DNA from: an uncultured Candidatus Saccharibacteria bacterium
Lineage (GTDB): Bacteria; Patescibacteriota; Minisyncoccia; SW-4-49-11
DNA: 64,000 nucleotides
Direction: 5' to 3'
Assembly: GCA_964585065.1 (NCBI GenBank)
Contig: CAZPCB010000002.1
Coordinates: 1,006 to 65,005 of the forward strand
How positions within the stretch are numbered: position 1 is the first letter of the stretch; each line of letters opens with the position of its first letter. The notes below the pieces were generated by a model. That model searched no databases, had not been told where the DNA came from, and saw nothing but the letters and a program-made list of their open reading frames with translations. Positions 279 through 57,252 of this stretch are shown here, one piece after another. Position numbers and translations under genes: made by a program.

Positions 279-353
279 TCCGCGATAGCTCAGCGGTAGA
301 GCAGTCGGCTGTTAACCGATTGGTCGTAGGTTCGAATCCTACTCGCGGAGCCA
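279..353 (+). tRNA. tRNA-Asn (anticodon GTT)
   Basis: Cloverleaf by eye: acceptor TCCGCGA/TCGCGGA (7 bp), D-arm GCTC..GAGC, anticodon stem GTCGG/CCGAT with loop CTGTTAA (GTT), T-arm GTAGG-TTCGAAT-CCTAC, discriminator G plus encoded CCA. Confidence 0.9.
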
Positions 354-717
354 AACAAGATAAAACCAGGGTAATTCCTGGTTTTATCTTTGTTATTACT
401 TTTGTAGAGAGTAGGATGAGAACCTGGGGAAGGGGTCGGGAAACTACTGTTTCCCGTGGTGGAGGGATTGGAACCGAGGGGTTCCAAGGAGTGAATCCCA
501 TTCACGACTGGTTTGCAATCCTACTCGCGGAGCCAAACAAGATAAAACCAGGGTAATTCCTGGTTTTATCTTTGTTATTACTTTTGTAGAGAGTAGGATG
601 AGAACCTGGGGAAGGGGTCGGGAAACTACTGTTTCCCGTGGTGGAGGGATTGGAACCGAGGGGTTCCAAGGAGTGAATCCCATTCACGACTGGTTTGCAA
701 TCCTACTCGCGGAGCCA
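354..717. repeat. Two perfect tandem copies of a 182-bp unit (354-535, 536-717) immediately 3' of tRNA-Asn. Each unit ends with a copy of the tRNA 3' end (..ggtttgcaatcctactcgcggagcca) and contains four hairpins.
   Basis: The string actcgcggagcca recurs at 341, 523 and 705 (period 182). Hairpins: aaaaccagg/cctggtttt, gggaaac/gtttccc, ttggaacc/ggttccaa, gtgaat/attcac. Outer stem agtaggat/atcctact. Confidence 0.9.
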
Positions 718-788
718 AACTCTAAAAAATAGCTAAATTATAAAAACATGGTACAATATAATAGTATATATAATACTAAAAGAATAAT

Positions 789-1331
789 ATGAAAAAAATT
801 GTTAAAATAATTGCATTAATAATAGGTATTGGTGTTTCTTCAATTTTATTAATAGGATTTATATTTACTATAACTGAAGACCCACTAGAAAAAAGCGTAA
901 AAATTATTGTTAAATCTCTAAATGAAAAAGATAGAGTAACATTTGATCAATATGTAGATCTCAAACAACTATCAGACAATATATCAAGGTCTGCTACAGA
1001 AGAGACTGCCCCAGATAGTTTGTCAGAATATAGCAAGAGACCTGATGTAGATGATGGAGATATAAGCTTTTTAAAAGATTTAATTTCAGAATATACTTCT
1101 GGAAAGTATACCGAGGTAGTTGATCTGTACTTCCAAGGTCAAGGAGAGATTAACGGCCCCCTTAAGTTTCTACTAGATATTGATGGGAAAGCAATTCGTA
1201 CAAAAATTACAAAAACTGAGACGAATGGGACTCTAACATATATACCTCCTTCTGGTGTAAATGATACGGAAAAATCTTATATTTTTGAGAAAAGGGGGGA
1301 ATATTGGGTTTTAGTAAATGCAATTAAGTAG
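789..1331 (+). CDS. hypothetical protein with N-terminal transmembrane anchor
   Basis: 180-aa ORF with a hydrophobic N-terminus (IIALIIGIGVSSILLIGFIF); no recognisable domain. Confidence 0.5.
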   Translation: MKKIVKIIALIIGIGVSSILLIGFIFTITEDPLEKSVKIIVKSLNEKDRVTFDQYVDLKQLSDNISRSATEETAPDSLSEYSKRPDVDDGDISFLKDLISEYTSGKYTEVVDLYFQGQGEINGPLKFLLDIDGKAIRTKITKTETNGTLTYIPPSGVNDTEKSYIFEKRGEYWVLVNAIK

Positions 1332-1353
1332 TTATATTACAACTATAATTTCC

Positions 1354-1393
1354 CCCACTCAAAGGTTCGAACATCCTCTAGCTCCCGGAGCCA
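1354..1393. repeat. pseudo-tRNA 3'-end fragment (ccactcaaaggttcgaacatcctctagctcccggagcca), degenerate copy of the tRNA-Asn T-loop/acceptor 3' half
   Basis: Contains ggttcgaa (T-loop) and ..cggagcca; the same fragment recurs at 3996-4036. Confidence 0.6.
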
Positions 1394-1573
1394 AACAAGA
1401 TAAAGCCAGGGTAATTCCTGGTTTTGTTTTTGTTATTGACTTTGAGAAAGTAGGATGAGAACCTGGGGAAGGGGTCGGGAAACGGAAGTTTCCCGTGGCG
1501 GAAATACCAAAACCGAGGGGTTTTGGGGAGTGAATCCCATTCACGACTGGTTTGCAATCCTACTCGCGGAGCA
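1394..1573. repeat. third, diverged copy (~90% identity) of the 182-bp tRNA-linked unit, followed by the same downstream flank (aactccctttaaatagc) as the array at 718
   Basis: Alignment by eye to 354-535. Hairpin 2 changed from ttggaacc/ggttccaa to ccaaaacc/ggttttgg (four compensatory pair changes). Hairpin 1 loop changed tact to ggaa. Confidence 0.85.
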
Positions 1574-1611
1574 AACTCCCTTTAAATAGCTTATTTTAGC
1601 TATTTTTTGGT

Positions 1612-2460
1612 TTATTTTTTCAACCACTTATTAAAGAATTCTCTTTGTAATGTATTACTCTCTTTTATAACTTGACTCAATCCATGATCAGCTTCATTGA
1701 AATAATGAAAATCAACACTATTATGACCCGCTTCTATAAGTTTATTGAAAAATTTTACTGCAATACTAGGAATTACTTGGACATCTTGCCCTCCTTGAAT
1801 AATTTGTAATGGAATAGTTTTATCTATCTCTTCTACATTCTGATAGGGAGATTTAGCTTTTATTAGCTCCTCTGAATTTGTATCATACATATCTGAATGC
1901 CATTCTTTCAAACCCGGTCTACTTATATATTCGCTTGCAATATCTAACAGGGAGCTTTGTATACTAACACATCGTATCCAATTTAGAGATTTACGTAATA
2001 TGTTCAAACTCATTAAACCACCTCTACTCATTCCCCTCATTCCAATTCTCGTAGAGTCTACATAGTCCAAGCTATCTATTACTGGTTTTAGATTAATAAT
2101 ATCCTCTAAATCCATACCTGAAAGCTCATCTTTTCCCTCACTACCCCCATTACCAGAGTATTGTGACGCAATTACCACATAGCCCCAAGAGGCAATAATA
2201 CATATAACTCCGATAAGCTTTTTACCAGTTATAACACCAAACTCTTTTGAGCCACCTCTATTGTAGATAATACATGGATATACACCATCTGCTTTTGGTT
2301 TTACAATATATCCTTTGATTTGTCGTCCATCTGAATCATAAGTAAGGTCATATAAATCCAACATGTCTAATGTATTCCAAGTCAATTTTTGCGTATCTAA
2401 AGGGAGAGCCTGCAATGTCTCTTGAACGATAGAATTCCAATCTATAGGTAATAACTTCAT
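1612..2460 (-). CDS. alpha/beta hydrolase, S9 prolyl-oligopeptidase/dienelactone-hydrolase-like catalytic domain
   Basis: 282 aa; nucleophile elbow GMSRGG, C-terminal ..GGQDVQV..ADHG arrangement typical of S9/DLH-fold serine hydrolases. Confidence 0.6.
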   Translation of the reverse strand: MKLLPIDWNSIVQETLQALPLDTQKLTWNTLDMLDLYDLTYDSDGRQIKGYIVKPKADGVYPCIIYNRGGSKEFGVITGKKLIGVICIIASWGYVVIASQYSGNGGSEGKDELSGMDLEDIINLKPVIDSLDYVDSTRIGMRGMSRGGLMSLNILRKSLNWIRCVSIQSSLLDIASEYISRPGLKEWHSDMYDTNSEELIKAKSPYQNVEEIDKTIPLQIIQGGQDVQVIPSIAVKFFNKLIEAGHNSVDFHYFNEADHGLSQVIKESNTLQREFFNKWLKK

Positions 2461-2467
2461 GAGATTA

Positions 2468-3685
2468 TTATATATACTTTTGAGCTTCTATCCACTCCTC
2501 CTCGGATAAATTTCCTTTAATCACAAGAGATTTAATATGAGATGATAGGAATTGTTTTGCTAGAGATATAACTTCTTCATAAGATATTGCTCTGACTTGC
2601 TCATAGAAATCTTCTAAGGTAAGATGTATTCCGTCATCATAACGCAACTGAAATCCATAAAAAGACTGTATGTCATATATGCTACCATCTTGAGTTTTTT
2701 CATCACTTATATAAATAGTTTTATATCTTTCTATATCTTGTGGCGTTATCAAAGACTCCAGATTATTAATAGAGTTATAGATAATTTGCAATGACTCTAA
2801 TAGCTTCTCTTTATCTATTTTATATTGAATCTGTATGTCTATACTATTAGGATGTACATTTGAATATGAATCAATCCAATATACTAAACCATTCTTAATT
2901 CGTAGTTCTTGTAATAATACTGAAGTCCAAAAATTAGCTAAAGTTGTTCGTAGAATTGATACAGCCGTGCTAGTTCTAAGGTTTATCGTATTGGGGATAG
3001 CATACCCAAATAAAACTTCTAATGTGTTATCTGATGTTGGAAGCAATCTATTAGTAGATTTTACACTTTCTAAAGCTCCAAGAGATAAAAATGGCTCTAT
3101 AGAATTTACTTCTGAATCTAATATAATCTCATTTATATCTGGAGTAATAATTAATAAATGTGCTTGGTTCTTTGTATAATGCTTTTCTGCATAATAAATA
3201 TACTCCTCATATGTAATGCTATCTAAATCCCCAAATACATTATACGCTAAAGATGTGTTAGAGTACAAAGTATCAGTAAAAATTTTATAGATATTATTTT
3301 GATCATTAGCTTTTTCTTGAGCAATAATATTTTTTTCCTTTTCAAAAGCCTCTCGAGATACTGGTTCTTGATCAAAGTTGTTTAATAATAGTTGTAAAGA
3401 AGGTAAAAGATTATCTAACTCTTGGACATGATAGTAATAGGTTAAATATGCTGTTGTATAAGCATTAGCTCTAATTCCATACTCTTCTAAAGTTTTGGCC
3501 TTAGTATACTCATCATCTCCTCCTGCCCAAAGATGTTCAAAAAAATGAGATAAGCCTTGAGCATTAACATCATCAAGTGCATATCCTCGAGCAAACCAAA
3601 GAGATACAGAAGACATAATTTGTTGCCTATCTTCTATTACTGTAGTCTTAATCCCTTGATATATCCCATGTTTAATAGTGGGCAT
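2468..3685 (-). CDS. M16 family (pitrilysin/insulinase-like) zinc peptidase
   Basis: 405 aa; inverted zinc-binding motif HFFEH (HxxEH) near the N-terminus followed by a downstream Glu region; sits 7 bp from the hydrolase gene, likely an operon. Confidence 0.75.
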   Translation of the reverse strand: MPTIKHGIYQGIKTTVIEDRQQIMSSVSLWFARGYALDDVNAQGLSHFFEHLWAGGDDEYTKAKTLEEYGIRANAYTTAYLTYYYHVQELDNLLPSLQLLLNNFDQEPVSREAFEKEKNIIAQEKANDQNNIYKIFTDTLYSNTSLAYNVFGDLDSITYEEYIYYAEKHYTKNQAHLLIITPDINEIILDSEVNSIEPFLSLGALESVKSTNRLLPTSDNTLEVLFGYAIPNTINLRTSTAVSILRTTLANFWTSVLLQELRIKNGLVYWIDSYSNVHPNSIDIQIQYKIDKEKLLESLQIIYNSINNLESLITPQDIERYKTIYISDEKTQDGSIYDIQSFYGFQLRYDDGIHLTLEDFYEQVRAISYEEVISLAKQFLSSHIKSLVIKGNLSEEEWIEAQKYI

Positions 3686-3716
3686 AATAATGTTGTTTAA
3701 ACTATACTCAGTATAT

Positions 3717-3751
3717 ATAAAATAATGAGGGAAGGCAACTTGTACCTTCCC
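3717..3751 (-). terminator. intrinsic terminator-like hairpin (minus orientation GGGAAGG-N9-CCTTCCC followed by tcattatttt) between a GC-rich leader/small ORF and the M16 peptidase start
   Basis: Plus-strand gggaaggcaacttgtaccttccc at 3729-3751, with a T-run on the minus strand. Confidence 0.45.
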
Positions 3752-3788
3752 TGTTTGGAACTTGGAGCCTAGTAGCTACCGTTGAGGA

Positions 3789-3869
3789 CTACTTGCTGGG
3801 ACGAGGGGTGGGACGGCCAGAGCCATTCCCCCAACCTTGCGAACCGCCACCACCATTGCTATTGGCCAT
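3789..3869 (-). CDS. possible 26-aa Gly-rich small peptide (MANSNGGGGSQGWGNGSGRPTPRPSK) in a GC-rich patch; could instead be a structured leader RNA
   Basis: ATG at 3869, TAG at 3789-3791, GGAG 11 nt upstream; codon usage is GC-rich and unlike its surroundings; has its own promoter-like element and a downstream hairpin. Confidence 0.2.
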   Translation of the reverse strand: MANSNGGGGSQGWGNGSGRPTPRPSK

Positions 3870-3922
3870 TGAAATGAATCTCCGAAACGAAGGGGTAGAG
3901 AGACATTACTGTCTCAAAACCA

Positions 3923-3961
3923 AATCTATCACAAATATTAATATTTGTCAATAACTGTCAA
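3923..3961 (-). promoter_or_regulatory. sigma70-like promoter on the minus strand: TTGACAgttaTTGACA, then 17 bp, then TAGATT
   Basis: Reverse complement of 3923-3961; -35 at 3946-3951, -10 at 3923-3928; nearly the same architecture recurs at 63443-63481. Confidence 0.45.
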
Positions 3962-3995
3962 TTATATTAATTCTTCCTGAAAACCTCCTAGATTA

Positions 3996-4052
3996 CCCAC
4001 TCAAAGGTTCGAACATCGTCTAGCTCGCGGAGCCAACTCTCTTTAAATAGCT
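3996..4052. repeat. solo copy of the pseudo-tRNA-3' fragment joined directly to the downstream-flank motif (..cgcggagcca|actctctttaaatagc), i.e. an empty-site/attR-like junction
   Basis: Same fragment and flank as at 1354-1393/1574-1590, without the 182-bp unit between them. Confidence 0.6.
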
Positions 4053-4106
4053 TGATCGTAATATTCTCAATTAATGCTATACTACATGTATATTTAACTC
4101 TATTAT

Positions 4107-5654
4107 ATGAAAGTTAGTAGAAAAATCTTTTTCATAGCCCCAGGGATTATATTGTTATGTGTAGTGATATTAAGTGGGTATATAATAATGAATAGTAATA
4201 CTCAATCAGCTACCTCTCCTAATACACCACCCTACTTAACGGAAGTAAGGGATTATACATTACATAATACTATTTCATTTATAAAACCAATTGATTATAC
4301 AAAATACCAGAATAATCAGGAAGATCTAGATATTGCTATGCAAAAAACCTATCTCGAGGGAGGAATAACTTTTGATGAATTTTTAGAACTGAATAGTATG
4401 GTAAATTTAATAGATAATAATCTTAAAGATATAGAGGCAACTCTATATTACAACTCAGAAACTGTGCTATCTGGAGTTATTTTGAGCTCTAATAAAGAAG
4501 TTTTTTACACAAATGCACGCCAAAAACTACAAGAGTTGAATATTAATTCCCCAGATCTCACCTCTCTCAAAATCACTGAGATATATTTCCGGACCACCTC
4601 TCAAGATTCTAGAGCTTTAGAGTTGGCTTATTTATTCAATATCAACACTGATGTTGAATTTAATAAAAATCTTAAAATAAAACTAGATAATGCTATTAAC
4701 TCTAATAATTACTCCGATTTAGAAAATACAGGGTTAAATATATCTAACCCTTATAATACCGATAATTATGGACTCAAAAGATTAAAAAGGGAGAATGAAG
4801 AAAAGACTAAGAGATTAGCACAAATTGAGTCCTGTATACTTGATTTATATATTCAAGAAGCCGATTTAAAGATTAGATTAAATCAACCTACATGGAGCAC
4901 CAAAAAAGGCCAGTATACAGAAACTATATCTAATCTGAGTAATAAAATTGGATCAATAAACTCACAAGGAGAAAGGACTATAATAGGATGTGAACAATAT
5001 CATTTCCACAATATCCAAATCAGATTCACAAAACCACTCTCTATTAGTGATATTCAGGAGATTGAGAATACCTTACCATTAATTTATCCCAAAAAATATA
5101 TAGCGGAATTAGATCCAGACTATAGGACTAACACTACTAGTACAGAAATAGATATATTAAATGCTCAATTTGATAACTATGAACCTGAAGACTATACTTA
5201 TCGTGATATAGATTTAATAACCACCACATCTACTGAAACTTCACAGTTATTTGCTTTATTTAATCCTGGGAAAAATTGGAAAGATATGAAAAATAATTAT
5301 TATCAAAATCGCACATACTTAAATATCCCTAAAGATAGTGTCGAGAAATATAGAAATGACCAGGATACAATCTATTACTTTACTAACAACCCTCAGTATA
5401 CTAATTTAAGTACTCAGTATATTGATGGTGTTACTCTCTTTACCACAACCCTAGACGATCAATATCTATGCTTACAACAATTATTAACATCAGATAACCA
5501 CTCATCTTGTAGTGTATTCTCTTTAAATCAAAGCCAGAAAAAGCTCTTACAATCCTACATAAAATTGATTGAAATTACCCCTGTAGCACCACATACCCAC
5601 ACAGACTTATATAAATTTGAGGCAAGCCCAACTTCTTCTTTTTGGGTAAAGTAA
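4107..5654 (+). CDS. hypothetical membrane-anchored protein (N/T/Y-rich, low complexity)
   Basis: 515-aa ORF; N-terminal TM (IFFIAPGIILLCVVILSGYII); no recognisable domain. Confidence 0.5.
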   Translation: MKVSRKIFFIAPGIILLCVVILSGYIIMNSNTQSATSPNTPPYLTEVRDYTLHNTISFIKPIDYTKYQNNQEDLDIAMQKTYLEGGITFDEFLELNSMVNLIDNNLKDIEATLYYNSETVLSGVILSSNKEVFYTNARQKLQELNINSPDLTSLKITEIYFRTTSQDSRALELAYLFNINTDVEFNKNLKIKLDNAINSNNYSDLENTGLNISNPYNTDNYGLKRLKRENEEKTKRLAQIESCILDLYIQEADLKIRLNQPTWSTKKGQYTETISNLSNKIGSINSQGERTIIGCEQYHFHNIQIRFTKPLSISDIQEIENTLPLIYPKKYIAELDPDYRTNTTSTEIDILNAQFDNYEPEDYTYRDIDLITTTSTETSQLFALFNPGKNWKDMKNNYYQNRTYLNIPKDSVEKYRNDQDTIYYFTNNPQYTNLSTQYIDGVTLFTTTLDDQYLCLQQLLTSDNHSSCSVFSLNQSQKKLLQSYIKLIEITPVAPHTHTDLYKFEASPTSSFWVK

Positions 5655-5666
5655 TCTCAAGACTAG

Positions 5667-6011
5667 CTACCTCATTAAAAGCCAAATGTCTATTGAGGTA
5701 ATAATTATTGCAGTAATTATGGCAAGTGCGACTATACTAGATCCAATATCTTTAATTCTTTTGATATGAATATTCCACTTAGGTTCCATAAAATCACAAA
5801 TTAACTCTATGGTAGTATTAATCAATTCTAAAATAATAATTGAAATACCAAATAATATCGTTTGCTTTATTAATTCCCAACTTTCCAAAAAAACTTCTAG
5901 TCCAACCAATACCAGAGTAATAATAATTGTTTGTATGATTAGGTTATTATCTCTAGAGAAAGCATATGATAAGCCTTCAACCCATAATTGATATTTTTTA
6001 AGCAGTTTCAT
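5667..6011 (-). CDS. dgkA: diacylglycerol kinase / undecaprenol kinase (DgkA family)
   Basis: 114 aa, 3 TM; motifs ELINTTIE and KDIGSSIVALAIIT match DgkA (E..N.AIE and KD.GSAAV.). Confidence 0.65.
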   Translation of the reverse strand: MKLLKKYQLWVEGLSYAFSRDNNLIIQTIIITLVLVGLEVFLESWELIKQTILFGISIIILELINTTIELICDFMEPKWNIHIKRIKDIGSSIVALAIITAIIITSIDIWLLMR

Positions 6012-6321
6012 AGGGTAGATTATCTTTTACCCTATGAAGCATCCCGACAGCACTATTGATTACATAAAAACCTTGTTTTTCCATAAGTAAAGAAGCTATT
6101 TGAGAGCGTTCACCACTTTTACAGTAGATAATATAGGTTTTCGATGGATCTAATCTTTTTATTTCCTGAACAATATCAGACCTACTAATATCAAAATTTA
6201 CCGCTCCCACTATATGCCCTTGATTAAACTCCTCTAAAGTCCGAACATCAAGTAATATTTCATTCTCTGGTAAATTTTGAGATTTAGATTGAAACTCTTG
6301 GGTTGTAGATATTATATTCAT
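5998..6321 (-). CDS. rhodanese-like sulfurtransferase domain protein
   Basis: 107 aa; active-site loop CKSGERS (Cys-x-S-G-x-R); overlaps dgkA by 14 nt. Confidence 0.75.
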   Translation of the reverse strand: MNIISTTQEFQSKSQNLPENEILLDVRTLEEFNQGHIVGAVNFDISRSDIVQEIKRLDPSKTYIIYCKSGERSQIASLLMEKQGFYVINSAVGMLHRVKDNLPYETA

Positions 6322-6488
6322 GCTATTATAGTAAGCTATATATATACTTTACTACATATATCTATCCATTTCAATTTGTAATCACTTCTCTCTTTTCAAA
6401 TTTATATACTTGTTAGCCATATAATACTTTAGTAGAGAACGTGTATTCTACTATACTAAAATAAAAGTGGATTAAGCACTACTGTCTA

Positions 6489-6517
6489 CCAGTCAAACAT
6501 CGTCTAGCTCCCGAATC
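6489..6517. repeat. short fragment of the pseudo-tRNA-3' repeat (aaacatcgtctagctcccgaatcc)
   Basis: Similarity by eye to 4012-4036. Confidence 0.35.
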
Positions 6518-6573
6518 CTAGATGATGTGGGCAACGTATTAATACAAATCTAATTACCAAATTATTATATTTA

Positions 6574-7302
6574 TCATCTATTTATCCAGGCAAAAATTCT
6601 GTTCAATTCCGATACAATATCCCGATCTAATATTTTTCCATGAGCTATTATAATTCTTTTTGGATTTAAAACTTTAACCCGATCAATTGATTTTTTTAAT
6701 AATTGATGATTACCCCAAAACAATGTTCTCTGGTCTCTCGTTGTGCCTCCATTTGGATGCAAAGCCCCACCTATATATGCTAAAGCTCGGAAAAATGGAT
6801 TGATTTTCTTTGCTTCAAAATTCTCTATAATATCAGTTACAATCCAAGATTTGCTAGGAATATGAAAAAAAGTGTATTCAGTCATAAATCGATTACCAAA
6901 CATAGGTAGAATCTCTAAATCTGGGAAATAATCCCGATCTATGTCTTTTAATTCCCTATCCCATCGTATTGATTGCCCTGCTTGCTGACTTCGCTTTTGA
7001 ACTCCATCACTAGCAAAAGTAATAGCTTCTGGATAGGCTTTTTGAAAATCCTGTATATACCAATAGTGAATTTTATTTGGAGAGATTAAATACTTTACAT
7101 TTCCCAACTCATCTAATTCTTTTTTCAAAGAACTCGTTAAACTAATTGGAGAGTGGATAAAAAGGTCATTATTAGAAAATCTTATTACTACCATTCTCGT
7201 AGTAAATGGCATTCCATAAAAATATATTATAGGACCATCTACAATCCATAGATTTTCACTAATTAATTTTAACGTATGTATTGGTTGATACAAATTATCC
7301 AT
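6574..7302 (-). CDS. conserved hypothetical protein (possibly DUF4336-like/MBL-fold related)
   Basis: 242-aa ORF; the family assignment is memory-based and weak. Confidence 0.5.
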   Translation of the reverse strand: MDNLYQPIHTLKLISENLWIVDGPIIYFYGMPFTTRMVVIRFSNNDLFIHSPISLTSSLKKELDELGNVKYLISPNKIHYWYIQDFQKAYPEAITFASDGVQKRSQQAGQSIRWDRELKDIDRDYFPDLEILPMFGNRFMTEYTFFHIPSKSWIVTDIIENFEAKKINPFFRALAYIGGALHPNGGTTRDQRTLFWGNHQLLKKSIDRVKVLNPKRIIIAHGKILDRDIVSELNRIFAWINR

Positions 7303-7430
7303 ATTATTTTTATGATTCTATTGTAATTATACACATTTATATATATTTTATCTACTTATAAAATTTATCTCCTCTCAAAACCATAGTGAGCCCCCTCTAG
7401 GGTAATGAGTGCTCTCTAACACTCATTTTT

Positions 7431-7460
7431 ATTATTGATTTTGAGAGAGTAGGATGAGAA
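7431..7460. repeat. fragment of the 182-bp unit (ttattgattttgagagagtaggatgagaa, matching 1436-1465)
   Basis: Similarity by eye; lies just left of the GC-rich island. Confidence 0.4.
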
Positions 7461-7541
7461 AAACTTAAGAATAAAGAATCCCCCCACTTAGGTGAGAGGA
7501 TTGTTGGAATTAGAGTTTACTTATCTTTCGTAGAGATTAAC

Positions 7542-8450
7542 TCAGTGATTTGCCTTTGCTAATAAAGCCTGTTTACTAGGAATCCGTAGCTGATAAGCCC
7601 AACCAAGACGCTCCAGAAATCGTATGAAGTAGTAGGTAGGGTCTGGTAGTGTTACTATCTTGTCCCCCCGTACTGTAAAACCCTGTCTTGCTGAATATTC
7701 GAAGCCATGATGTAGATTATGCCAACCCTCGCCAAGAGTGATAATAGCCACCCAAGTGTTGTTACGACTACCATCGCGGGTAATGAATGGCTGATCACCT
7801 ACTAAGTGGGCCACAGAGTTTACCGTAGCAACACCGTGGAACAAAAGAGTAGTGCTCAGACAAAATGCAACCAACCATTCTATACCACCGATATGCCAGG
7901 AGATCCAAGCTAATGCCAAAGCTGGCACTATATGTAGTCTATCGATCAAACGTAATACAGGATCAGACTCTATATCAGCTGGTAGGGTACTAGGATGAAA
8001 TCCAGGTGAAAGTATCCAACCTATCTGAGCATGCCAAAAACCATGCAGTCGATTTCTATACATCAGAGGGCTATGAGGATCATCCAAGGTATCAACATGA
8101 CGATGATGGGCCTTGTGATGAGCCTTCCACCAACTTGGTCCCATCTGGCCTGCTGAGGCTGTTATTATGGATCCGATCCACCATACTAGTCTAGGAGCCT
8201 TATAGCTACCATGAGTTATCAAGCGATGGTAAATGGCAGTAATTCCAAGCATCCGTACTAGGTATAATACTGTAGCCCAGAGTATGGCGCATAAGCCAAG
8301 TCTCTCCCGAAACAACAGTAGACAGCCTAGATGTGCAACCAGTATGAATACCGGTCCCATACCATGCAAAAACCGAAGGAGATGGGATTGGGAAATAGAA
8401 TGGGAAGATACTGCTGTGGAACTGATAGATTTTGAATTAAACATCAGCAT
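7542..8450 (-). CDS. membrane acyl-lipid/acyl-CoA delta-9 fatty acid desaturase (DesC-like)
   Basis: Three His boxes: HRLITH, HHKAHHRH..DPHSP, GEGWHNLHHGFEYSARQG. GC-rich codons. The ORF-track start (8513) is a TTG; the ATG at 8450 is more likely. Confidence 0.8.
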   Translation of the reverse strand: MLMFNSKSISSTAVSSHSISQSHLLRFLHGMGPVFILVAHLGCLLLFRERLGLCAILWATVLYLVRMLGITAIYHRLITHGSYKAPRLVWWIGSIITASAGQMGPSWWKAHHKAHHRHVDTLDDPHSPLMYRNRLHGFWHAQIGWILSPGFHPSTLPADIESDPVLRLIDRLHIVPALALAWISWHIGGIEWLVAFCLSTTLLFHGVATVNSVAHLVGDQPFITRDGSRNNTWVAIITLGEGWHNLHHGFEYSARQGFTVRGDKIVTLPDPTYYFIRFLERLGWAYQLRIPSKQALLAKANH

Positions 8451-8612
8451 ATTCCAGCCCAAACTGGACCATAAGGACATAAACACCTTAGCATACTTAT
8501 TATGTTTAATCAATATACAGAAATATATCTATTCTAGGATATGACACTTCTATCCTTCAAAGAAAAATCCCTCCAGCTGAGCCAAAGGGATTGAGTTAGA
8601 TTGAATTGTAGA

Positions 8613-9314
8613 TCAGATGAGAGCTGAGGCAGCCAGCTTGGCGATTTCACGGGTGGAGAATCCGATAGAGACCAAAGACTCCTGATACGCGATAAGGAAA
8701 TCCTCAATGAGGTCTTCCCTGTCCATTTGGAGGACGGCCGCGTCACCGGCTACCTGATCAAGCATAATGCGTACCAAGGGGAGATTGTCCCGATTGGCCT
8801 GCTCGAGCTCCTCACGACTGGCTTCAAAATTGGCTTTGAGCCATTCTTGGCCATAATTGAGATGAGTGTATTCATCCTTGACTACTCCCTCGGTGATTTT
8901 CCGCGCAAACGGATCGGCAACAGGTATATAGATGTGATAAGCTGCAATTGCAAAGGCCTCGATGAGAATCGCTTGAATCAGCAAACAGGTGACTACCTTC
9001 CTCTCTGTAAAAGCTTTTTGAAAATTGCCATGTAGGGGCAAGAAAAACTTTTTAGCAAAAGGTATATCTGCTTGCACTCCCAAGTTGCGGGCACAGGCAG
9101 TGAAACCCTTCATATGCCTCAGCTCCATACCCGCAAGGCGGGTAAGCTCTTCAGCCTGATCGGGTAGCAAGCTACCAAGGGAAATGTAATTGTCATAAGC
9201 TTCTTGCTCACCTTCAATCACAATGGCATTAATCCTACTATAGGCATCTTTGTAAATGGCGCTGGTGAAGTCAGGAAGAGAGATTTGTTCTTGAGAAAGA
9301 GCAGTTGTGTTCAT
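8613..9314 (-). CDS. aldehyde-deformylating oxygenase (cyanobacterial-type alkane-forming ADO, ferritin-like di-iron)
   Basis: The strings [71 protein letters not shown].. are close to the Synechococcus orf1593 family as recalled. ATG at 9314; the track start at 9338 is a TTG. Confidence 0.8.
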
Positions 9315-9446
9315 AATGGGTATTGGATAAAAATCCAAGAGGTCATTTTTATTATACGCCGCTTATTTTGCTTTGTATATATACACGAAATCATTGACAA
9401 TACCCCCTCAACACCCTATTATATACGTACTTTCTTTCATATCCTC

Positions 9447-9752
9447 ATGAAGCCAATTACAAGGAGTTCCAGAATTTCACTGATTGTGGGAACATTGATT
9501 AGAAAAAGATATCGTTATTATCATATAGAGAAAAAAGAGGCCATATTGCGTGGAGTAATATATGCTATACCTGGTCAAGTTCTTCCTCACTGCAATGGAG
9601 ATTGGACTGAATTAGAGCTGGGTTTATATGAATATTTTAGAACAAAGGGACAGCCTGGATCATTTAATGAGGAAGAGATGCAGACTCTTACTCGAGAGTA
9701 TTTCTCATCATTGCAAGCAACTATAGAATATATCACCCCCAAGGAAGACTAA
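9447..9752 (+). CDS. possible small hypothetical protein in the divergent ADO/CFA-synthase intergenic region
   Basis: ATG-initiated portion (101 aa) of track ORF 9204-9752; the upstream part overlaps ADO and is likely spurious. Confidence 0.15.
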   Translation: MKPITRSSRISLIVGTLIRKRYRYYHIEKKEAILRGVIYAIPGQVLPHCNGDWTELELGLYEYFRTKGQPGSFNEEEMQTLTREYFSSLQATIEYITPKED

Positions 9753-9865
9753 TCTCTTCCTTTTTTCTTTGCATAATTTGCTATAAATCCTCTTGGATAC
9801 TTGACTTTTACCTCATTTCCTGTTAGTGTTTCAAAGCATACTCTTCGGGGTATCGTTCTTTCACA

Positions 9866-11071
9866 ATGGAGCATTTAACCATGTCTGCTCAGACACGTGT
9901 TGAGAGATTTTTTGATAAAGCAGGAGTTGACCAAACCTTTATTACTGCAACTTCTAAGTTTTATAAAGCTTTCGATGGACGGTTCACCCTTGGAATGGGT
10001 GAATCTTATATCAATGGCAGTTTTGCGATTGGTGATGAGAATCTCATCGAAATGTTTACCAGAATTTTTGGAAGCTTAAATGGATTCTTGCGGGGAGATG
10101 ATTATGCTGGGTTTAGCTCACTGGGATTTTATCGGCTGTATCAGCTGATGAATGCCACCCAAATGATCAATTGGCAACACATCCGTGCAAAGTATTTTGC
10201 GGATATTCACTATGAGCTACCTCATCAGCTTTTTGTCCAGATGCTTGGCCCCTCTCGGGCTTATAGCTCTGGTTATTGGCCAGAGGGGGTGGAGACTCTA
10301 GACCAGGCTCAGGATGCCAAGTTTGACTTGATTATCCGCAAGCTTGGTCTCAAAGCCGGTGAAACCGTACTCGACTTCGGTTGTGGGGCGGGTAGTTTTG
10401 GCAGATATGCAGGATCTCGCGGTATTCGAGTCGTAGGACTCAATATCTGCCAGGAACAACTCGCTTATGCTCGAGCTCACAATGACCAAGAAGTTCCTGC
10501 AATTTACCTTGATTTTAATTTGGTAACACAAAGTGTTGCTGAGTTACAATCAATTCTCAAACCCTATGGGATTGAGAATTTCGATGCTGTTACCTTTATT
10601 GGCTCGATTGAGCATGTGGGTTGGAAGAACTATGCTTCTCTCTATCGCAAGCTCTATCAGCTTCTGAATCCTACGGGACGGATTCTCTGCCATGTTATTG
10701 GATCCTATATTCCATTACCGGTGGCCGATCCCTATATCATGACCAAGATTTTCCCTGACTCGCAGCTTGCTGTGATCAGTGAAATGACCAAGGCAACTGA
10801 GAAGACTGGCTTCCAGCTAATGGATTGGCACAACCTGGAAACAGGTGTTCACTCCTATGCCAAGACACTGAGAGCTTGGCTTAACAACTTCCAAACCAAC
10901 TGGGAAACTATCAAGCCCTCTATGCCTCACAAAGATAAGGAAGCCTTTTACCGAGAATGGGTATTCTACCTAATGCTCTGTATTGGAGCCTTCGAGTCTG
11001 ACTTTGTCAATGTTGGGCACTATGTGTTCCGCAAGACTGCAGACACTCACCCATTCACTCCAGTCCGCTAA
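9866..11071 (+). CDS. cyclopropane-fatty-acyl-phospholipid synthase family SAM-dependent methyltransferase
   Basis: 401 aa; SAM motif VLDFGCGAGSF; CMAS-like length and C-terminal region; GC-rich. Confidence 0.7.
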   Translation: MEHLTMSAQTRVERFFDKAGVDQTFITATSKFYKAFDGRFTLGMGESYINGSFAIGDENLIEMFTRIFGSLNGFLRGDDYAGFSSLGFYRLYQLMNATQMINWQHIRAKYFADIHYELPHQLFVQMLGPSRAYSSGYWPEGVETLDQAQDAKFDLIIRKLGLKAGETVLDFGCGAGSFGRYAGSRGIRVVGLNICQEQLAYARAHNDQEVPAIYLDFNLVTQSVAELQSILKPYGIENFDAVTFIGSIEHVGWKNYASLYRKLYQLLNPTGRILCHVIGSYIPLPVADPYIMTKIFPDSQLAVISEMTKATEKTGFQLMDWHNLETGVHSYAKTLRAWLNNFQTNWETIKPSMPHKDKEAFYREWVFYLMLCIGAFESDFVNVGHYVFRKTADTHPFTPVR

Positions 11072-11864: not shown

Positions 11865-11986
11865 TGAATGAACAAAACAATGTAGTTCGAAAAAAATTAT
11901 ACCACAAAAACCCTATTTTGTCAATATATAATAACACTATTTTAGCATATGCTTGCGAATTTTACTGAAAAAGGTATACTATCTCT

Positions 11987-13138
11987 ATGAATATATTATC
12001 CTCTTTTCGCTATATTAAATCACTATTCTTTCCCCGTATAAGCCCATTGATTACGGTACATATTGATGAGGCAGCTTTATTACATAATTTGAGAGAGTAT
12101 AGACAAGCCTATCCCGATATACAATTTGCGCCTGTACTCAAAAGCAATGCTTATGGACATGGGCTTATTCCTATTGCTCATATATTGGACTCCCCCAATA
12201 TCCCCTTCCTGATTGTAGACTCTTATTATGAGGCTTTAACCCTGCGGCAAAACGCTATCAAATCCCCCATTCTCATTATTGGGTATATTTTGCCTGAAAT
12301 TATCAAAAAATCTCGCCTCAAAAATGTATATTTTACCGTGACAAGTTTGGCGCAATTACAAGGAATTAATGATAGTATTCGGCGTCCTATCTCTATACAT
12401 CTCAAAATCGATACTGGTATGCATAGGCAGGGTTTATTACCGACTGAAATTCATCAAGCTATTACTATTATTAAAAAGAATTCTTCACTACAATTACAAG
12501 GTATATGCTCTCATCTTGCTGATGCGGATAATAAGATAAGTACATATAATCAAGCTCAATTAGATCAATGGGAACAAAGTATTCCGTTTTTTAAAACCGC
12601 CTTTCCTAATCTCAAGTATTATCATATATCAGCAAGCGCTGGGCTTATACATACCGATAAGTCTCATCATAATCTTGCTCGATTAGGTTTGGGATTATAT
12701 GGAATTAGTATTATTGAGAATAATAAACTTTCCCTGAAGCCCGTTATCTCACTTACTTCTATCATTAGTGGGATAAAAGTTATCAAAAAAGGTGATACCG
12801 TTGGATATAATAATACCTTTATTGCCAAAAATGATATGTTAATCGCGACTATACCCGCTGGTTATGCTGAGGGAGTCGATCGTAGATTATCTAATATTGG
12901 GCAAGTGGAGATAGCGGAAATATTATGCCCAATCATTGGGCGAGTAAGTATGAATATTACTACTATTGATATTACTCATATGCCGAATATTCAAATTGGA
13001 GATATTGTGACTCTTATCAGCAATGATCATTCCTCCCCTATTTCTGTTAGTGCTATTGCTAAAATGTGCGATACTATTCCTTATGAAATTCTGATACATA
13101 TTCCTGGATATTTGCGCCGAGAGATCAAAAAAGCATAA
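11987..13138 (+). CDS. alr: alanine racemase
   Basis: 383 aa; PLP-lysine motif AVLKSNAYGHG. Confidence 0.85.
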   Translation: MNILSSFRYIKSLFFPRISPLITVHIDEAALLHNLREYRQAYPDIQFAPVLKSNAYGHGLIPIAHILDSPNIPFLIVDSYYEALTLRQNAIKSPILIIGYILPEIIKKSRLKNVYFTVTSLAQLQGINDSIRRPISIHLKIDTGMHRQGLLPTEIHQAITIIKKNSSLQLQGICSHLADADNKISTYNQAQLDQWEQSIPFFKTAFPNLKYYHISASAGLIHTDKSHHNLARLGLGLYGISIIENNKLSLKPVISLTSIISGIKVIKKGDTVGYNNTFIAKNDMLIATIPAGYAEGVDRRLSNIGQVEIAEILCPIIGRVSMNITTIDITHMPNIQIGDIVTLISNDHSSPISVSAIAKMCDTIPYEILIHIPGYLRREIKKA

Positions 13139-42641: not shown

Positions 42642-42787
42642 CAACAAATTCCTCCAGAAGTACTGAGAGATCATCCTGTACTTCGCCACCCTAACCCAAC
42701 TCCCCTTACACAAGCAACAAACTCCTCCAGAAGTGCTGAGAAATCATCCTGTACTTCACCACCCTAACCCAACTCCCCTTACAGATT
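42642..42787. repeat. two tandem copies of a 73-bp direct repeat (about 93% identical), GC-richer than the surroundings, upstream of 42867
   Basis: caacaaattcctccagaagtactgagagatcatcctgtacttcgccaccctaacccaactccccttaca versus the next 73 bp. Confidence 0.85.
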
Positions 42788-50990: not shown

Positions 50991-51347
50991 ATGAGTGAAG
51001 AAAAGAAGACCTCTAAAAAAGTAACCATAGTCCCAACTGATAGACAAAAAAATATTGCCGCTATTAGCTATATATTCTTTATTATTGGATATTTTACCGT
51101 AGAAAAAGACTCTCCTTTTGTGAAATTTCATATGAAACAATCTCTCACTTTATTAATTTTTGCTGCTGCTATTAGTTTTACTCTAAGTATTTTTGGGATT
51201 ATACCTATATTAGGTTGGTTAATTGCTTTTTTGGGTGGTATTCTTTCTCTTATTTTATTTGTTATTGGAATTATTAATGCCTTATCTGGAGAAGAAAAAG
51301 AGCTTCCTCTTATTGGTAAATATACTGAAAATTTATTCAGTTTTTAA
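50991..51347 (+). CDS. small multi-TM membrane protein (DUF4870-like)
   Basis: 118 aa; FVKFHMKQSL motif and 3 TMs. Confidence 0.4.
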   Translation: MSEEKKTSKKVTIVPTDRQKNIAAISYIFFIIGYFTVEKDSPFVKFHMKQSLTLLIFAAAISFTLSIFGIIPILGWLIAFLGGILSLILFVIGIINALSGEEKELPLIGKYTENLFSF

Positions 51348-52867: not shown

Positions 52868-52871
52868 ATAT

Positions 52872-53981: not shown

Positions 53982-54331
53982 ATCTTCTCTATCTTACTCT
54001 ATTTCTATATATGTATTATACCTTGAATAATTCCTTTTTTCTAGTTTATTTGTTTTCTTGTCCTTTATTTATATAAAGTATAATAGTAGATAGTAGTATG
54101 TGTGGAAAAGCTGAAAACTGGTTTTTGACCGCATAAATACTGTGTGTCAAGTGGGGATATCATTTGGGATAAGTCTCTTATAACTTTGGGGATAAAACAG
54201 AGTGGGAAAAATCTCTGTGGATTAAGTCCTATTTATACACAATAGTATTCACAGAAATCTAGTGATTTTATATAAGTTATACACAACTTATTAACAATAG
54301 TTAAGGAATTACAAAGGAGGTTTTTTCTGTA
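53982..54331. promoter_or_regulatory. AT-rich dnaA-dnaN intergenic region with a cluster of DnaA-box-like 9-mers (each one mismatch from TTATCCACA/TGTGGATAA): candidate oriC segment
   Basis: tgtggaaaa (54099), tggggataa (54186), tgtggatta (54217), ttatacaca (54233 and 54267). Confidence 0.5.
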
Positions 54332-55774: not shown

Positions 55775-55997
55775 TGCAATCGTCTAAATTGATGATGTTG
55801 ATAATCTGTGGATAAGTTGATTTTATTATACGCTATTGCAGGATTTTTGCAAAGATATCCCCATTAAAGATTGAGTATAAGCTATAATTCACTTTGAATT
55901 CACTTTCAAAAATAACCCTCCCTCAACAATACGGTATTATATCTTGACTTTCTCTTAATAATAAGCTATAATATGCAACAAGTCTATCGTTATATAT
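55775..55997. promoter_or_regulatory. dnaA/rpmH divergent region: one perfect DnaA box and a consensus sigma70 promoter for rpmH
   Basis: TGTGGATAA at 55807-55815; TTGACT at 55944-55949, 17-bp spacer, TATAAT at 55967-55972. Confidence 0.55.
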
Positions 55998-56132
55998 ATG
56001 ATCAAAGGAGCAGCAAGTAAGAATCGTAAAAGAAATCGCCGACATGGTTTTTTGTCTCGTATGGCAACAAAGTCGGGACGAGCTTTAATTAATCGACGCC
56101 GAGCAAGAGGACGAGCAAAATTATCCGTCTAA
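55998..56132 (+). CDS. rpmH: 50S ribosomal protein L34
   Basis: 44 aa, [44 protein letters not shown]; below the ORF-track cutoff, found by eye. Confidence 0.85.
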
Positions 56133-56154
56133 TTTACTTTATATAAAAAACACA

Positions 56155-56475: not shown

Positions 56476-56484
56476 ACAATCTGT

Positions 56485-57243: not shown

Positions 57244-57252
57244 TACTCATCT

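What the first reader, a model, noticed from the sequence alone, without database searches (positions are those of the whole stretch)
1354..7470. String of pseudo-tRNA-Asn 3' fragments to the right of the tRNA suggests serial integrations at this tRNA (attR-like scars) with no integrase in view
Degenerate copies of the tRNA-Asn 3' half (..ggttcgaaca-tc-tctagctc-cggagcca) joined to the native downstream flank (aact..aaatagc) occur at 1354-1393 and 3996-4052. Shorter pieces occur at 6489-6517 and 7431-7460. This is the footprint expected when integrative elements repeatedly insert into the 3' end of a tRNA and leave duplicated att cores. The segments between them (a peptidase pair, dgkA, rhodanese, then the GC-rich island) would then be nested islands. 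No integrase or recombinase gene is recognisable between 1 and 11 kb.
Basis: partly seen in the sequence, partly recalled or inferred. Interest (0 to 1): 0.55.

Follow-up and report, generated by a model that had tools for sequence, protein, structure and literature searches.

The report
Serine-recombinase integration scars beside tRNA-Asn
The tRNA-like fragments are leftover right-end junctions of mobile elements that a large serine recombinase inserts at the very end of the tRNA-Asn gene in this group of ultra-small (CPR/Patescibacteria) bacteria, so this is an ordinary kind of genomic island with a few unusual details.

Summary
The fragments are real and far above chance. Three are copies of a ~50-nt 'pseudo1' piece (1343-1393, 3988-4035, degenerate 6480-6520). 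The fourth (7426-7460) is a truncated piece of a separate 182-nt repeat unit, not of the tRNA 3' half. Close relatives (95-96% nt identity) settle the interpretation. Six independent contigs carry a 532-552-aa large serine recombinase (LSR) element inserted exactly at the tRNA-Asn 3' end. In the two contigs that reach the far end (about 11.3 kb and 10.4 kb) the right junction is pseudo1. It is joined to the terminator (T2) that follows empty tRNA-Asn sites in one contig, and to terminator T1a in the other. Pseudo1 is the element's own attP arm. Its reverse complement encodes the recombinase tail (LRELDDVRTFEWGI*), and copies differ largely by synonymous codons. Gene blocks between scars come and go among relatives; the upstream flank is conserved and the downstream flank largely so. 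No recombinase is found in the window. The 182-nt unit has the architecture of E. coli RtT repeats and is only partly explained.

The parts
279..353 (+). tRNA-Asn(GTT). Its last ~20 nt (335-353, AATCCTACTCGCGGAGCCA) form the left arm of the integration site (attB).
   Evidence: ARAGORN; Rfam tRNA 73.5 bits. In relatives the recombinase ORF abuts or overlaps this end.
354..717 (+). Two identical 182-nt units (354-535, 536-717). Each has a terminator hairpin T1a, a spacer, an inverted copy of the T-arm/acceptor (GAGAGTAGGATGAGAACC), about 80 nt of GC-rich hairpins, and a T-arm-like stretch ending in an exact 19-nt copy of the tRNA 3' end.
   Evidence: TRF period 182, 2.1 copies, 100%. Fold z = -6.6. 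T1a scored as terminator-like. Weak full-length RtT hit of 18.8 bits. Copy number at the tRNA is 0, 1 or 2 in relatives.
718..745 (+). Degenerate T2'-type post-tRNA flank (aactctaaaaaatagc...).
   Evidence: Read by eye against the T2' form in L009, L014 and L018.
789..1331 (+). 180-aa ORF with no Pfam hit; cargo block 1, not found in any related locus searched by tblastn.
   Evidence: no tblastn hit in the loci searched.
1343..1393 (+). pseudo1 copy 1 (scar). The reverse complement reads LRELEDVRTFEWGKL-stop, a recombinase tail remnant.
1394..1574 (+). Third, diverged copy of the 182-nt unit (P4 hairpin of the alternative type). It was displaced to the right of scar 1.
1575..1610 (+). T2: the AT-rich hairpin flank that follows empty tRNA-Asn sites in relatives (the right side of attB).
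   Evidence: Motif map. The same sequence follows the tRNA directly in L013 and L025.
1612..3961 (-). Cargo block 2: Peptidase_S9 (1612-2460), Peptidase_M16 (2468-3685), a 26-aa Gly-rich ORF (3789-3869) and their promoter-like site (3923-3961).
   Evidence: Pfam; promoter scan. M16 is present in L002, L007, L013, L022 and L025, and S9 only in some.
3988..4060 (+). pseudo1 copy 2 (3988-4035; reverse complement LRELDDVRTFEWVI-stop) joined directly to a T2-like flank (4036-4060). This is the same join as the attR of the intact element in L034.
4107..6321 (.). Cargo block 3: 515-aa ORF (+), dgkA (-) and rhodanese (-). Present only in L022 among relatives.
   Evidence: Pfam.
6480..6520 (+). pseudo1 copy 3, degenerate (27 of 41 positions; exact 18-mer AACATCGTCTAGCTCCCG); the reading frame is broken.
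6574..7302 (-). DUF4336 gene (block 4). Present in L022, L029, L034 and L004; absent in L025 and L026.
7380..7460 (+). Oldest scar: a remnant of the element-end motif (ccatagtgag), a T1-like hairpin, and the first ~35 nt of a unit (7426-7460) truncated against the FA-desaturase terminator. L025 and L026 keep pseudo1 + T1b + the same truncated unit here.
   Evidence: D2; L025 17600-17900; window 7439-7986 = L025 17772-18316, 89%.
7542..11071 (.). Largely conserved far flank: FA desaturase, aldehyde decarbonylase (ADO), CMAS. It is GC-richer (0.39-0.455 over 8-11 kb) than the surrounding sequence (about 0.33). It is the boundary of the variable region, not part of it.

Best explanation
Window 354-7470 is the variable region of an integration hotspot at the 3' end of tRNA-Asn in a CPR/Patescibacteria lineage.

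Mobile elements of about 10-11 kb integrate at ...CTCGCGGAGC^(C)A. In the contigs that cover them they carry a large serine recombinase (LSR), conserved core genes including DUF5659, and restriction-modification cargo. The recombinase gene lies at the element's left end and reads toward the tRNA, and its ORF crosses the junction. In the integrated state it ends ...LLRE-stop, with the stop codon inside the tRNA T-arm. In the attP state it would continue through the element's other end, the 'pseudo1' arm, which encodes ...LRELDDVRTFEWGI-stop.

After integration pseudo1 sits at the right junction (attR), joined to whatever followed the tRNA at that time. That is either the T2 terminator or T1 plus the 182-nt unit. 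Successive integrations, followed by loss of the recombinase and core genes, leave cargo blocks separated by pseudo1 scars. The window has three such scars plus an older one shared with relatives.

What is shown: the junction anatomy, the intact elements, the empty sites, the strain-to-strain variation and the codon pattern of pseudo1. What is inferred: the order of events, that decay rather than trans-mobilised mini-cassettes produced the small blocks, and any regulatory effect of the tail swap.

The 182-nt unit is a separate feature native to the site. It is a tandemly amplifiable duplication of the tRNA 3' end plus trailer, with RtT-like architecture. Integration at the tRNA splits it off to the attR side.
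For: - Six independent contigs with LSRs (70-100% identical to one another; Resolvase + Recombinase + Zn_ribbon_recom; N-terminal YARKSS motif) lie directly at the tRNA-Asn 3' end: L021/L034/L023/L035, L027, L028/L032, L036, L039 and L040.
- The intact element in L034 runs tRNA | GGAGC^AACTCAGG... LSR ... type III R-M ... | CACCCATTCAGAGGTTCGAACATTGTCCAACTCGCGGAGCC | T2, about 11.3 kb. In L036 the far end is pseudo1 + T1a.
- Empty sites, with the tRNA followed directly by T2, occur in L013, L025 and L026.
- An LSR C-terminal fragment in L015 reads straight through pseudo1.
- In 20 distinct pseudo1 copies the Leu codon is TTG, CTA, TTA or CTG and the Arg codon is CGC or CGG. Pairwise synonymous:nonsynonymous codon differences are 293:286 in that frame against 19:560 and 187:401 in the other two frames.
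- Block-wise presence and absence between strains that are 88-96% identical in shared DNA.
- All copies lie within 7.5 kb downstream of the tRNA, and none elsewhere in the 64 kb.
Against: - No recombinase, core gene or recognisable element remnant other than the scars is left in the window. The element origin of each cargo block is therefore inferred from its position.
- Simple serial integration at the tRNA predicts scars joined to the previous element's left arm. That is seen only once (L015). Most scars are joined to T2 or to T1 + unit, so extra steps are needed: deletion, unequal crossover, homologous exchange, or mini-cassettes carrying the unit.
- No excised circular form (an attP junction) was recovered.
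- No integration at a unit's 3' end was seen (0 of 6).
Confidence: 0.8

Rival explanations
1. The blocks were not delivered by serial site-specific integration. They were shuffled by homologous recombination, after DNA uptake or by unequal crossover. The conserved modules (tRNA, 182-nt unit, T2, pseudo1) act only as portable homology, and only one or a few true integrations ever occurred.
For: - Free reassortment of T1a/T1b with the two P4 types, and a hybrid P4 in L004.
- Perfect tandem units in the window, and a 794-bp [unit + gene + pseudo1] tandem in L005.
- The M16 allele is 57% identical at the amino-acid level inside flanks that are 96% identical at the nucleotide level.
- L022 carries a plain deletion from the T1a hairpin into S9.
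Against: - Each scar still needs an integration to create it. There are at least 20 distinct pseudo1 versions that keep the recombinase reading frame, which argues for many independent element copies.
- Intact elements are common in the population (6 contigs).
Confidence: 0.3
2. Small recombinase-less cassettes of the form [T1 - unit - 19-nt core - T2 - gene - motif - pseudo1] are themselves mobile. LSRs encoded elsewhere excise and insert them in trans, as miniature integrative elements whose attP is pseudo1 joined to T1.
For: The same periodic order recurs in the window (354-1393), L005, L029 and L034. This would explain how a unit comes to lie next to the tRNA again after an integration.
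Against: - No circular junction was seen.
- T1 + unit shows no significant similarity to the left arm of LSR elements (z below 2).
- Tandem duplication explains L005 equally well.
Confidence: 0.15
3. A tyrosine-recombinase or tycheposon-like element leaves true duplications of the tRNA 3' end, which is the classical picture the first reader implied.
For: Partial tRNA-like direct repeats next to a tRNA are the hallmark of such elements (bioRxiv 10.1101/2020.12.28.424599).
Against: - No Phage_integrase hit in the ~30 window ORFs scanned or in the island-side ORFs of 11 loci.
- The only recombinase found at the site is a serine recombinase.
- The fragments differ from the tRNA by indels, are conserved in that form as codons, and share only about 12 bp with the tRNA around the crossover.
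Confidence: 0.03
4. The fragments and the unit are parts of one structured non-coding RNA or regulatory repeat family (RtT-like), unrelated to mobile DNA.
For: Stable folds (z = -6.6 and -5.5). One four-base-pair compensatory swap in hairpin P4. The architecture is shared with E. coli RtT.
Against: - This cannot explain pseudo1 at the end of intact LSR elements or its codon pattern.
- The other helices show as many disruptions as wobble changes.
- No promoter is predicted, and a terminator lies upstream.
- The Rfam score is far below gathering (18.8 against 45).
Confidence: 0.05

Closest known systems
Serine-integrase (large serine recombinase) prophages and integrative elements, e.g. phiC31, Bxb1, TP901-1 (established knowledge; PMC1470463)
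   Same: - A recombinase of about 530 aa with Resolvase, Recombinase and zinc-ribbon domains.
- Short att sites with a small common core.
- The element is flanked by hybrid attL and attR with no long target duplication.
- The recombinase gene lies next to attP.
   Different: - The target is the extreme 3' end of a tRNA gene, whereas the textbook serine integrases named here are known for targeting protein-coding genes.
- attP lies inside the recombinase's own 3' coding end, so integration exchanges its last ~12-16 residues.
- The host is a CPR bacterium.
- Recombination activity is untested.
tRNA-linked genomic islands with strings of partial tRNAs, e.g. Prochlorococcus tycheposon islands (bioRxiv 10.1101/2020.12.28.424599)
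   Same: - Repeated integrations at one tRNA push older elements inward.
- Islands hold degenerate elements and scattered partial tRNAs.
- Most strains carry no intact element.
   Different: The recombinase there is a tyrosine recombinase, and the partial tRNAs are att duplications. Here it is a serine recombinase, and the fragments are diverged element arms that also code for protein.
E. coli tyrT/tyrV RtT repeats (Rfam RF00391; locus read)
   Same: For the 182-nt unit only:
- A tandem unit of nearly the same size (178 against 182 nt) directly after a tRNA.
- Each unit ends in the last 19 nt of that tRNA.
- Each holds an inverted copy of the T-arm/acceptor about 100 nt upstream, with the same TC-to-GA change (GGATTCGAACC to GGATGAGAA(C/G)C).
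- Copy number varies between strains (1-4 in E. coli; 0-2 here).
   Different: - The score is 18.8 bits against a gathering threshold of 45.
- The tRNA, the phylum and the interior sequence all differ.
- The unit here starts with a terminator hairpin.
- The tpr-like small ORF is not conserved here: the ATG is lost in L013, and about 88 nt are inserted in L005 and L029.
- Most of the shared motif follows from both being inverted copies of the universal T-loop.
Integration-dependent switches where attP lies inside a gene (mycobacteriophage BPs-type immunity, PMC4557955 and PMC3694055; SSV1-type integrases, from own knowledge)
   Same: Integration changes the C-terminus of an element protein because the crossover lies inside its coding sequence.
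   Different: In the BPs type the gene is the repressor and the enzyme a tyrosine integrase. Here it is the serine recombinase itself. No functional consequence has been shown.

Membership tests
Large serine recombinase integrative element | Recombinase with Resolvase + Recombinase + Zn_ribbon_recom domains and a catalytic-serine motif | tested here: met
   Met in relatives only (L021, L027, L028, L039, L040; Pfam families; N-terminal YARKSSEAEDRQ). L036 is included on its junction sequence alone; no LSR gene was called there. No such gene or fragment is in the window (tblastn; Pfam).
Large serine recombinase integrative element | Element bounded by hybrid junctions at a specific site, with an empty site in relatives | tested here: met
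   attL and attR of the elements in L034 and L036. Empty tRNA + T2 in L013, L025 and L026.
Large serine recombinase integrative element | Recombination between attP and attB catalysed by the enzyme; an excised circle | not testable with these tools
   No attP junction contig was recovered. L015 holds an attP-like arrangement (an LSR fragment reading through pseudo1) inside an island.
tRNA-linked island built by serial integration (array of attR scars) | Direct-orientation att-like fragments downstream of the tRNA, with variable gene blocks between them | tested here: met
   block-wise presence and absence.
tRNA-linked island built by serial integration (array of attR scars) | Each scar joined to the left arm of the previously integrated element | tested here: inconclusive
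   Seen once (L015). Elsewhere scars are joined to T2 or to T1 + unit.
Tyrosine-recombinase islands / tycheposons | Tyrosine recombinase (Phage_integrase) in or near the island | tested here: not met
   No such Pfam hit in the ~30 window ORFs scanned or in the island ORFs of 11 loci.
RtT RNA (RF00391) | Score at or above the Rfam gathering threshold | tested here: not met
   18.8 bits against 45.
RtT RNA (RF00391) | Tandem ~180-nt unit after a tRNA, ending in its last 19 nt, with an inverted T-arm copy | tested here: met
Integron cassette array (attC) | R''/R' core sites (RYYYAAC ... GTTRRRY), co-oriented promoterless cassettes, IntI | tested here: not met
   Read from the sequence: the unit arms do not fit the core consensus, cassettes lie on both strands with their own promoters, and there is no IntI.

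The most novel reading that the evidence does not exclude
Two linked ideas that the data allow but do not show.

1. The 182-nt unit and the E. coli RtT repeats belong to one cross-phylum class of tRNA-3'-end repeat modules. Each copy recreates the recombinase's attB arm, including the stop-codon context. Such modules would then act as spare landing pads, or as buffers that keep integrations off the tRNA gene. That would give RtT a rationale after about 45 years.

2. The exchange of the recombinase's C-terminal tail on integration (...LRELDDVRTFEWGI against ...LLRE) is a built-in switch. It would tell the enzyme whether the element is integrated or free, and so control directionality or stability.
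Probability: 0.12. Interest if true: 0.6.

Novelty: new member of a known kind. Interest (0 to 1): 0.4.

Why it matters
- It shows that the tiny, supposedly static genomes of CPR/Patescibacteria have an active integration hotspot, and it names the enzyme, the site and the element ends.
- Those elements deliver restriction-modification systems, and strain-specific accessory genes sit in the variable region between the scars.
- It gives a defined serine-integrase attP/attB pair with a tRNA target.
- It is a worked example that 'degenerate tRNA halves' can be coding element arms rather than decayed host DNA.
- The RtT-like unit is a lead on an old unexplained E. coli repeat.

Tried and rejected
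- **Prochlorococcus or tycheposon origin.** Suggested by the aldehyde decarbonylase gene and low GC. Rejected because the motif scans hit CPR MAGs and no tyrosine recombinase was found.
- **Known RNA family for the unit.** Nothing at gathering; only weak RtT and ylbH hits.
- **Other mechanisms read off the sequence.** Hammerhead-like CUGAUGA, a TnpB omega-RNA guide, an IS110 bridge RNA and an integron attC were each considered and dropped: the core motifs do not fit and no partner protein is present.
- **A small protein in the unit.** There is a 46-codon ORF starting at GGATGAGAACC, like tpr in E. coli. Rejected because the ATG is lost in L013, about 88 nt are inserted in L005 and L029, and the P4 changes are non-conservative but base-pair-preserving.
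- **Exceptional conservation of the unit.** Withdrawn. The genomes are simply close relatives (88-96% nt), and the 57% M16 identity reflects a swapped allele.
- **Unit derived from the element's left arm.** Local alignment z = 0.7-1.9, not significant.
- **The unit's 3' end used as a second attB.** 0 of 6 LSR contigs.
- **Viral contig scans.** Zero hits for the unit core and for pseudo1.
- **E. coli side check.** The tRNA-Tyr/RtT locus is also variable, but no integrase was seen at the one replaced locus inspected.

Full report
**1. The observation**

The window holds one tRNA, tRNA-Asn(GTT), at 279-353.
- A 41-nt family lies at 1354-1394, 3996-4036 (95%) and 6480-6520 (66%, with an exact 18-mer).
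- A second family links 7426-7460 to a spacer inside a larger repeat.
- The 17-nt core with up to 3 mismatches matches 6 times against 0.11 expected. None of these repeats occurs elsewhere in the 64 kb.

Three details differ from the description.
- The 1354 copy is followed by a terminator hairpin and a 182-nt repeat unit, not directly by the flank.
- The 7426-7460 piece is the 5' part of that unit, not a tRNA 3' half.
- Directly after the tRNA lies a perfect tandem of the same 182-nt unit (TRF 335-720, 2.1 copies, 100%), which the finding left out.

**2. Anatomy of the repeats**

I distinguish four modules.
- **core19:** the last 19 nt of the tRNA, AATCCTACTCGCGGAGCCA.
- **Hairpins that can follow ...GGAGCCA:** T1a and T1b (T1a scores as a terminator), and T2/T2' (AT-rich, ACTCCCTTTAAACAGCT...AGCTGTTTTTT).
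- **The unit:** T1, a spacer, GAGAGTAGGATGAGAACC, three GC-rich hairpins, GGTTTGC and core19.
- **pseudo1:** (CTATAT)CCCCCACTCAAAGGTTCGAACATCNTCNAGCTCNCGGAGCCA.

The window reads as follows:

tRNA | unit | unit | T2' | ORF180 | pseudo1 | unit | T2 | S9, M16 and a 26-aa ORF (all on the minus strand) | pseudo1 | T2-like | ORF515, dgkA, rhodanese | degenerate pseudo1 | DUF4336 | motif remnant + truncated unit | FA desaturase, ADO, CMAS.

No recombinase is found in the ORFs of 1-14 kb (Pfam). None was found in the ten further ORFs beyond 14 kb that I scanned. The remaining ORFs I only read by eye in translation.

**3. Where it comes from**

A 20-mer from the unit hits only CPR/Patescibacteria MAGs in the species-representative genome set: Ca. 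Paceibacterota, Parcubacteria, and one labelled Saccharibacteria. Two Streptomyces-type hits are chance. A gapped pattern finds seven more metagenome contigs. Viral contigs give nothing. The window is 95-96% identical in shared DNA to L021 and L022, and 88-95% to L029.

**4.

Upstream of tRNA-Asn the gene order is conserved: HisRS, an AhpC/TSA-type peroxiredoxin, a YgjP-like protein, then a 174-aa HEAT-like protein. Downstream it differs in almost every locus.

| Block | Present in | Absent in |
|---|---|---|
| ORF180 | window only | all loci searched |
| S9 + M16 | L025, L026 (M16 alone also in L002, L007, L013, L022) | |
| ORF515, dgkA, rhodanese | L022 | other loci searched |
| DUF4336 | L022, L029, L034, L004 | L025, L026 |

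Among the relatives that reach the far side, FA desaturase and CMAS recur in L022, L025 and L026. ADO recurs in those three and in L029. The GC-richer block is therefore largely conserved flank, and the variable region runs from the tRNA to about 7.5 kb. The truncated unit at 7426-7460 is shared with L025 and L026, which still have pseudo1 + T1b in front of it. That makes it the oldest scar.

**5. The recombinase**

I fetched contigs through the HEAT-like gene and then through recombinase homologues. Six independent contigs have a 532-552-aa large serine recombinase immediately 3' of tRNA-Asn: L021/L034/L023/L035, L027, L028/L032, L036, L039 and L040. Where the gene was called it has Resolvase + Recombinase + Zn_ribbon_recom domains, and the N-terminus reads YARKSS. 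For L036 the gene was not called and the evidence is the junction sequence. The gene reads toward the tRNA, and its ORF ends ...P(E/N/K)LLRE-stop, with the stop codon inside the T-arm. The left junction is ...CTCGCGGAGC^AA(C/G)T(C/T)(A/G/T)GGAA... in all six.

L034 contains a whole element of about 11.3 kb. In order from the tRNA it holds the LSR, genes of 393, 48, 81 (DUF5659), 234 and 387 aa, a type III restriction-modification pair, and a 193-aa gene. A 28-nt motif (AAACTATAGTGAGAG..GTGTGGGGTAA) follows. Then comes CACCCATTCAGAGGTTCGAACATTGTCCAACTCGCGGAGCC, joined to CACTCCCCTTAAACAGCTTATTTTAGCTGTTTTTTGG. That is pseudo1 joined to T2. L036 shows an element of about 10.4 kb with different cargo (a C5 methylase) whose far end is pseudo1 + T1a.

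Empty sites, with the tRNA followed directly by T2, occur in L013, L025 and L026. The same 28-nt motif precedes pseudo1 in island scars of L005, L013, L025, L029 and L034, and a remnant lies at window 7383-7393.

**6. Why pseudo1 keeps its odd form**

In L015 a C-terminal LSR fragment reads straight through pseudo1 on the opposite strand. Read that way, every good pseudo1 copy encodes L-R-(E/K/L)-L-(D/E)-(D/N)-V-R-T-F-E-W-(G/V)-(I/K)-stop. The conserved CTATAT at its left edge supplies the stop codon.

Among 20 distinct copies, one Leu is written TTG, CTA, TTA or CTG, and one Arg is written CGC or CGG. Pairwise codon differences are 293 synonymous to 286 nonsynonymous in this frame. The other two frames give 19:560 and 187:401.

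So pseudo1 is the element's attP arm and at the same time the 3' end of the recombinase gene in the free form. It resembles the tRNA because attP and attB share ...C(G/C)CGGAGC.A(A)CTC plus T-loop-like bases. It is not decayed host tRNA.

Window copies 1 and 2 still read LRELEDVRTFEWGKL-stop and LRELDDVRTFEWVI-stop. Copy 3 is broken.

**7. How the array arises**

What is shown:
- Integration at the tRNA puts pseudo1 to the left of whatever followed the tRNA. That is T2 in L034 and window 3988-4060. It is T1 + unit in window 1343-1574, and T1a in L036, whose contig ends before any unit.

What is inferred:
- Repeated integrations plus deletion of the recombinase and core genes leave cargo and scars.

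What does not fit simply:
- After an integration the tRNA is followed by the element's left arm, so later scars should be joined to such arms. I saw that only in L015.
- The recurring order [T1 - unit - core19 - T2 - small gene - motif - pseudo1] in the window, L005, L029 and L034 therefore needs an additional process.

Candidates for that process are unequal crossover or deletion between the 19-nt and longer repeats, homologous exchange between strains, and trans-mobilised mini-cassettes. Unit number at the tRNA is 0, 1 or 2, and L022 shows a plain deletion, which fits the first. The swapped M16 allele and the reassorted T1/P4 types fit the second. I could not decide among them (see the rival explanations).

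**8. The 182-nt unit**

It folds stably (z = -6.6 and -5.5). Its base stem is formed by an inverted copy of the tRNA T-arm/acceptor pairing with core19. One L013 copy even keeps GTAGGATTCGAACCT unchanged.

Across 16 distinct copies (94% mean identity) only hairpin P4 shows compensatory change: four pairs, one event, and one hybrid copy that breaks it. The other helices show both wobble changes and disruptions. That is too little to call it a functional RNA.

No promoter is predicted in front of it, and T1a scores as a terminator.

Its only Rfam resemblance is a weak full-length match to RtT (18.8 bits against a gathering score of 45). Reading the E. coli tyrT/tyrV locus shows the same architecture. 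The unit there is 178 nt, ends in the last 19 nt of tRNA-Tyr, and has an inverted T-arm copy with the same TC-to-GA change. Copy number varies between E. coli strains (1-4 annotated RtT per locus).

Most of the shared motif follows from both being inverted copies of the universal T-loop. I treat this as the closest known architecture, not as membership.

The unit's 3' end plus T2 reproduces attB almost perfectly. None of the six elements sits there, however, so the landing-pad idea is untested.

**9. Comparison and verdict**

This is a tRNA-linked integration hotspot with scars, which is a known kind of system. Its particular features are:
- a serine rather than a tyrosine recombinase;
- a target at the extreme 3' end of a tRNA;
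- attP inside the recombinase's own coding end, recalling integration-dependent systems where attP lies in a gene (PMC4557955, PMC3694055);
- a CPR host.

The 182-nt unit is the one part that remains only partly explained.

Noticed in passing
window 354-717 and 1394-1574: A 182-nt unit, in perfect tandem x2 plus one diverged copy. It has the architecture of the E. coli tyrT RtT repeats: an inverted T-arm copy, GC-rich hairpins, and an exact 19-nt copy of the tRNA 3' end. Its function and origin are unresolved.
   Followed up: yes
L013 8335-8563 (-); also L003, L005, L027, L029, L039: In several relatives tRNA-Asn carries an insertion in the anticodon loop. In L013 it is a confirmed group I intron (Rfam 85 bits) with an HNH-type ORF; in L029 the inserted ORF is GIY-YIG. 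The window's tRNA has no intron.
   Followed up: partly
window 7542-11071: FA desaturase, a cyanobacterial-type aldehyde decarbonylase (Pfam Ald_deCOase, E = 5e-117) and a cyclopropane-fatty-acid-synthase-like methyltransferase form a GC-richer block (0.39-0.455 against about 0.33) in a CPR genome. ADO is kept in four relatives, FA desaturase and CMAS in three. No acyl-ACP reductase was seen next to ADO.
   Followed up: partly
window 60384-61952 (-): A single 522-aa ORF fuses a LexA DNA-binding domain and an S24 peptidase domain to a C5 cytosine DNA methyltransferase. It lies next to an unannotated 288-aa ORF (59511-60377) that may be the cognate nuclease.
   Followed up: partly
window 2468-3961 (-): A 26-aa Gly-rich ORF (MANSNGGGGSQGWGNGSGRPTPRPSK, 3789-3869) with its own promoter heads an operon with M16 and S9 peptidases, which looks like a peptide-precursor-plus-protease set. 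The M16 allele is only 57% identical (aa) to that of L022, although the flanks are 96% identical (nt).
   Followed up: no
L005 about 3380-3470 (-) and L029 about 11910-12000 (+): An ~88-nt GC-rich insertion sits in hairpin P3 of the unit, identical in two contigs. It may be a further small nested element.
   Followed up: no
L021 12404-12431 and 16254-16281; L027 201-228 and 7978-8005; upstream of pseudo1 in L005, L013, L025, L029, L034; remnant at window 7383-7393: A 28-nt motif AAACTATAGTGAGAGGGGTGTGGGGTAA recurs in intergenic regions of the LSR elements. Its reverse complement contains CTCACTATAG, reminiscent of single-subunit phage RNA polymerase promoters. I used it here only as a marker of element DNA.
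   Followed up: partly
L019 (E. coli K-12 1285500-1288500); L037/L038 (E. coli AVS0151): RtT copy number differs between E. coli strains (1-4). In AVS0151 the RtT array and tyrV are replaced by a 7-kb lipid-modification gene cluster between tRNA-Tyr and narI, with no integrase. About a third of E. coli genomes lack a contiguous K-12-like locus.
   Followed up: partly
L021 2910-3746, L022 585-1421, L025 3183-4019: A heliorhodopsin gene lies about 7 kb upstream of tRNA-Asn in the relatives. That region lies outside the window.
   Followed up: no
window 51344-58683: A replication-origin neighbourhood (a ComM/YifB-like gene, dnaN, dnaA, rnpA, yidC, identified by reading the translations) lies about 50 kb from the hotspot. 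A 73-nt tandem repeat is at 42642-42783.
   Followed up: no
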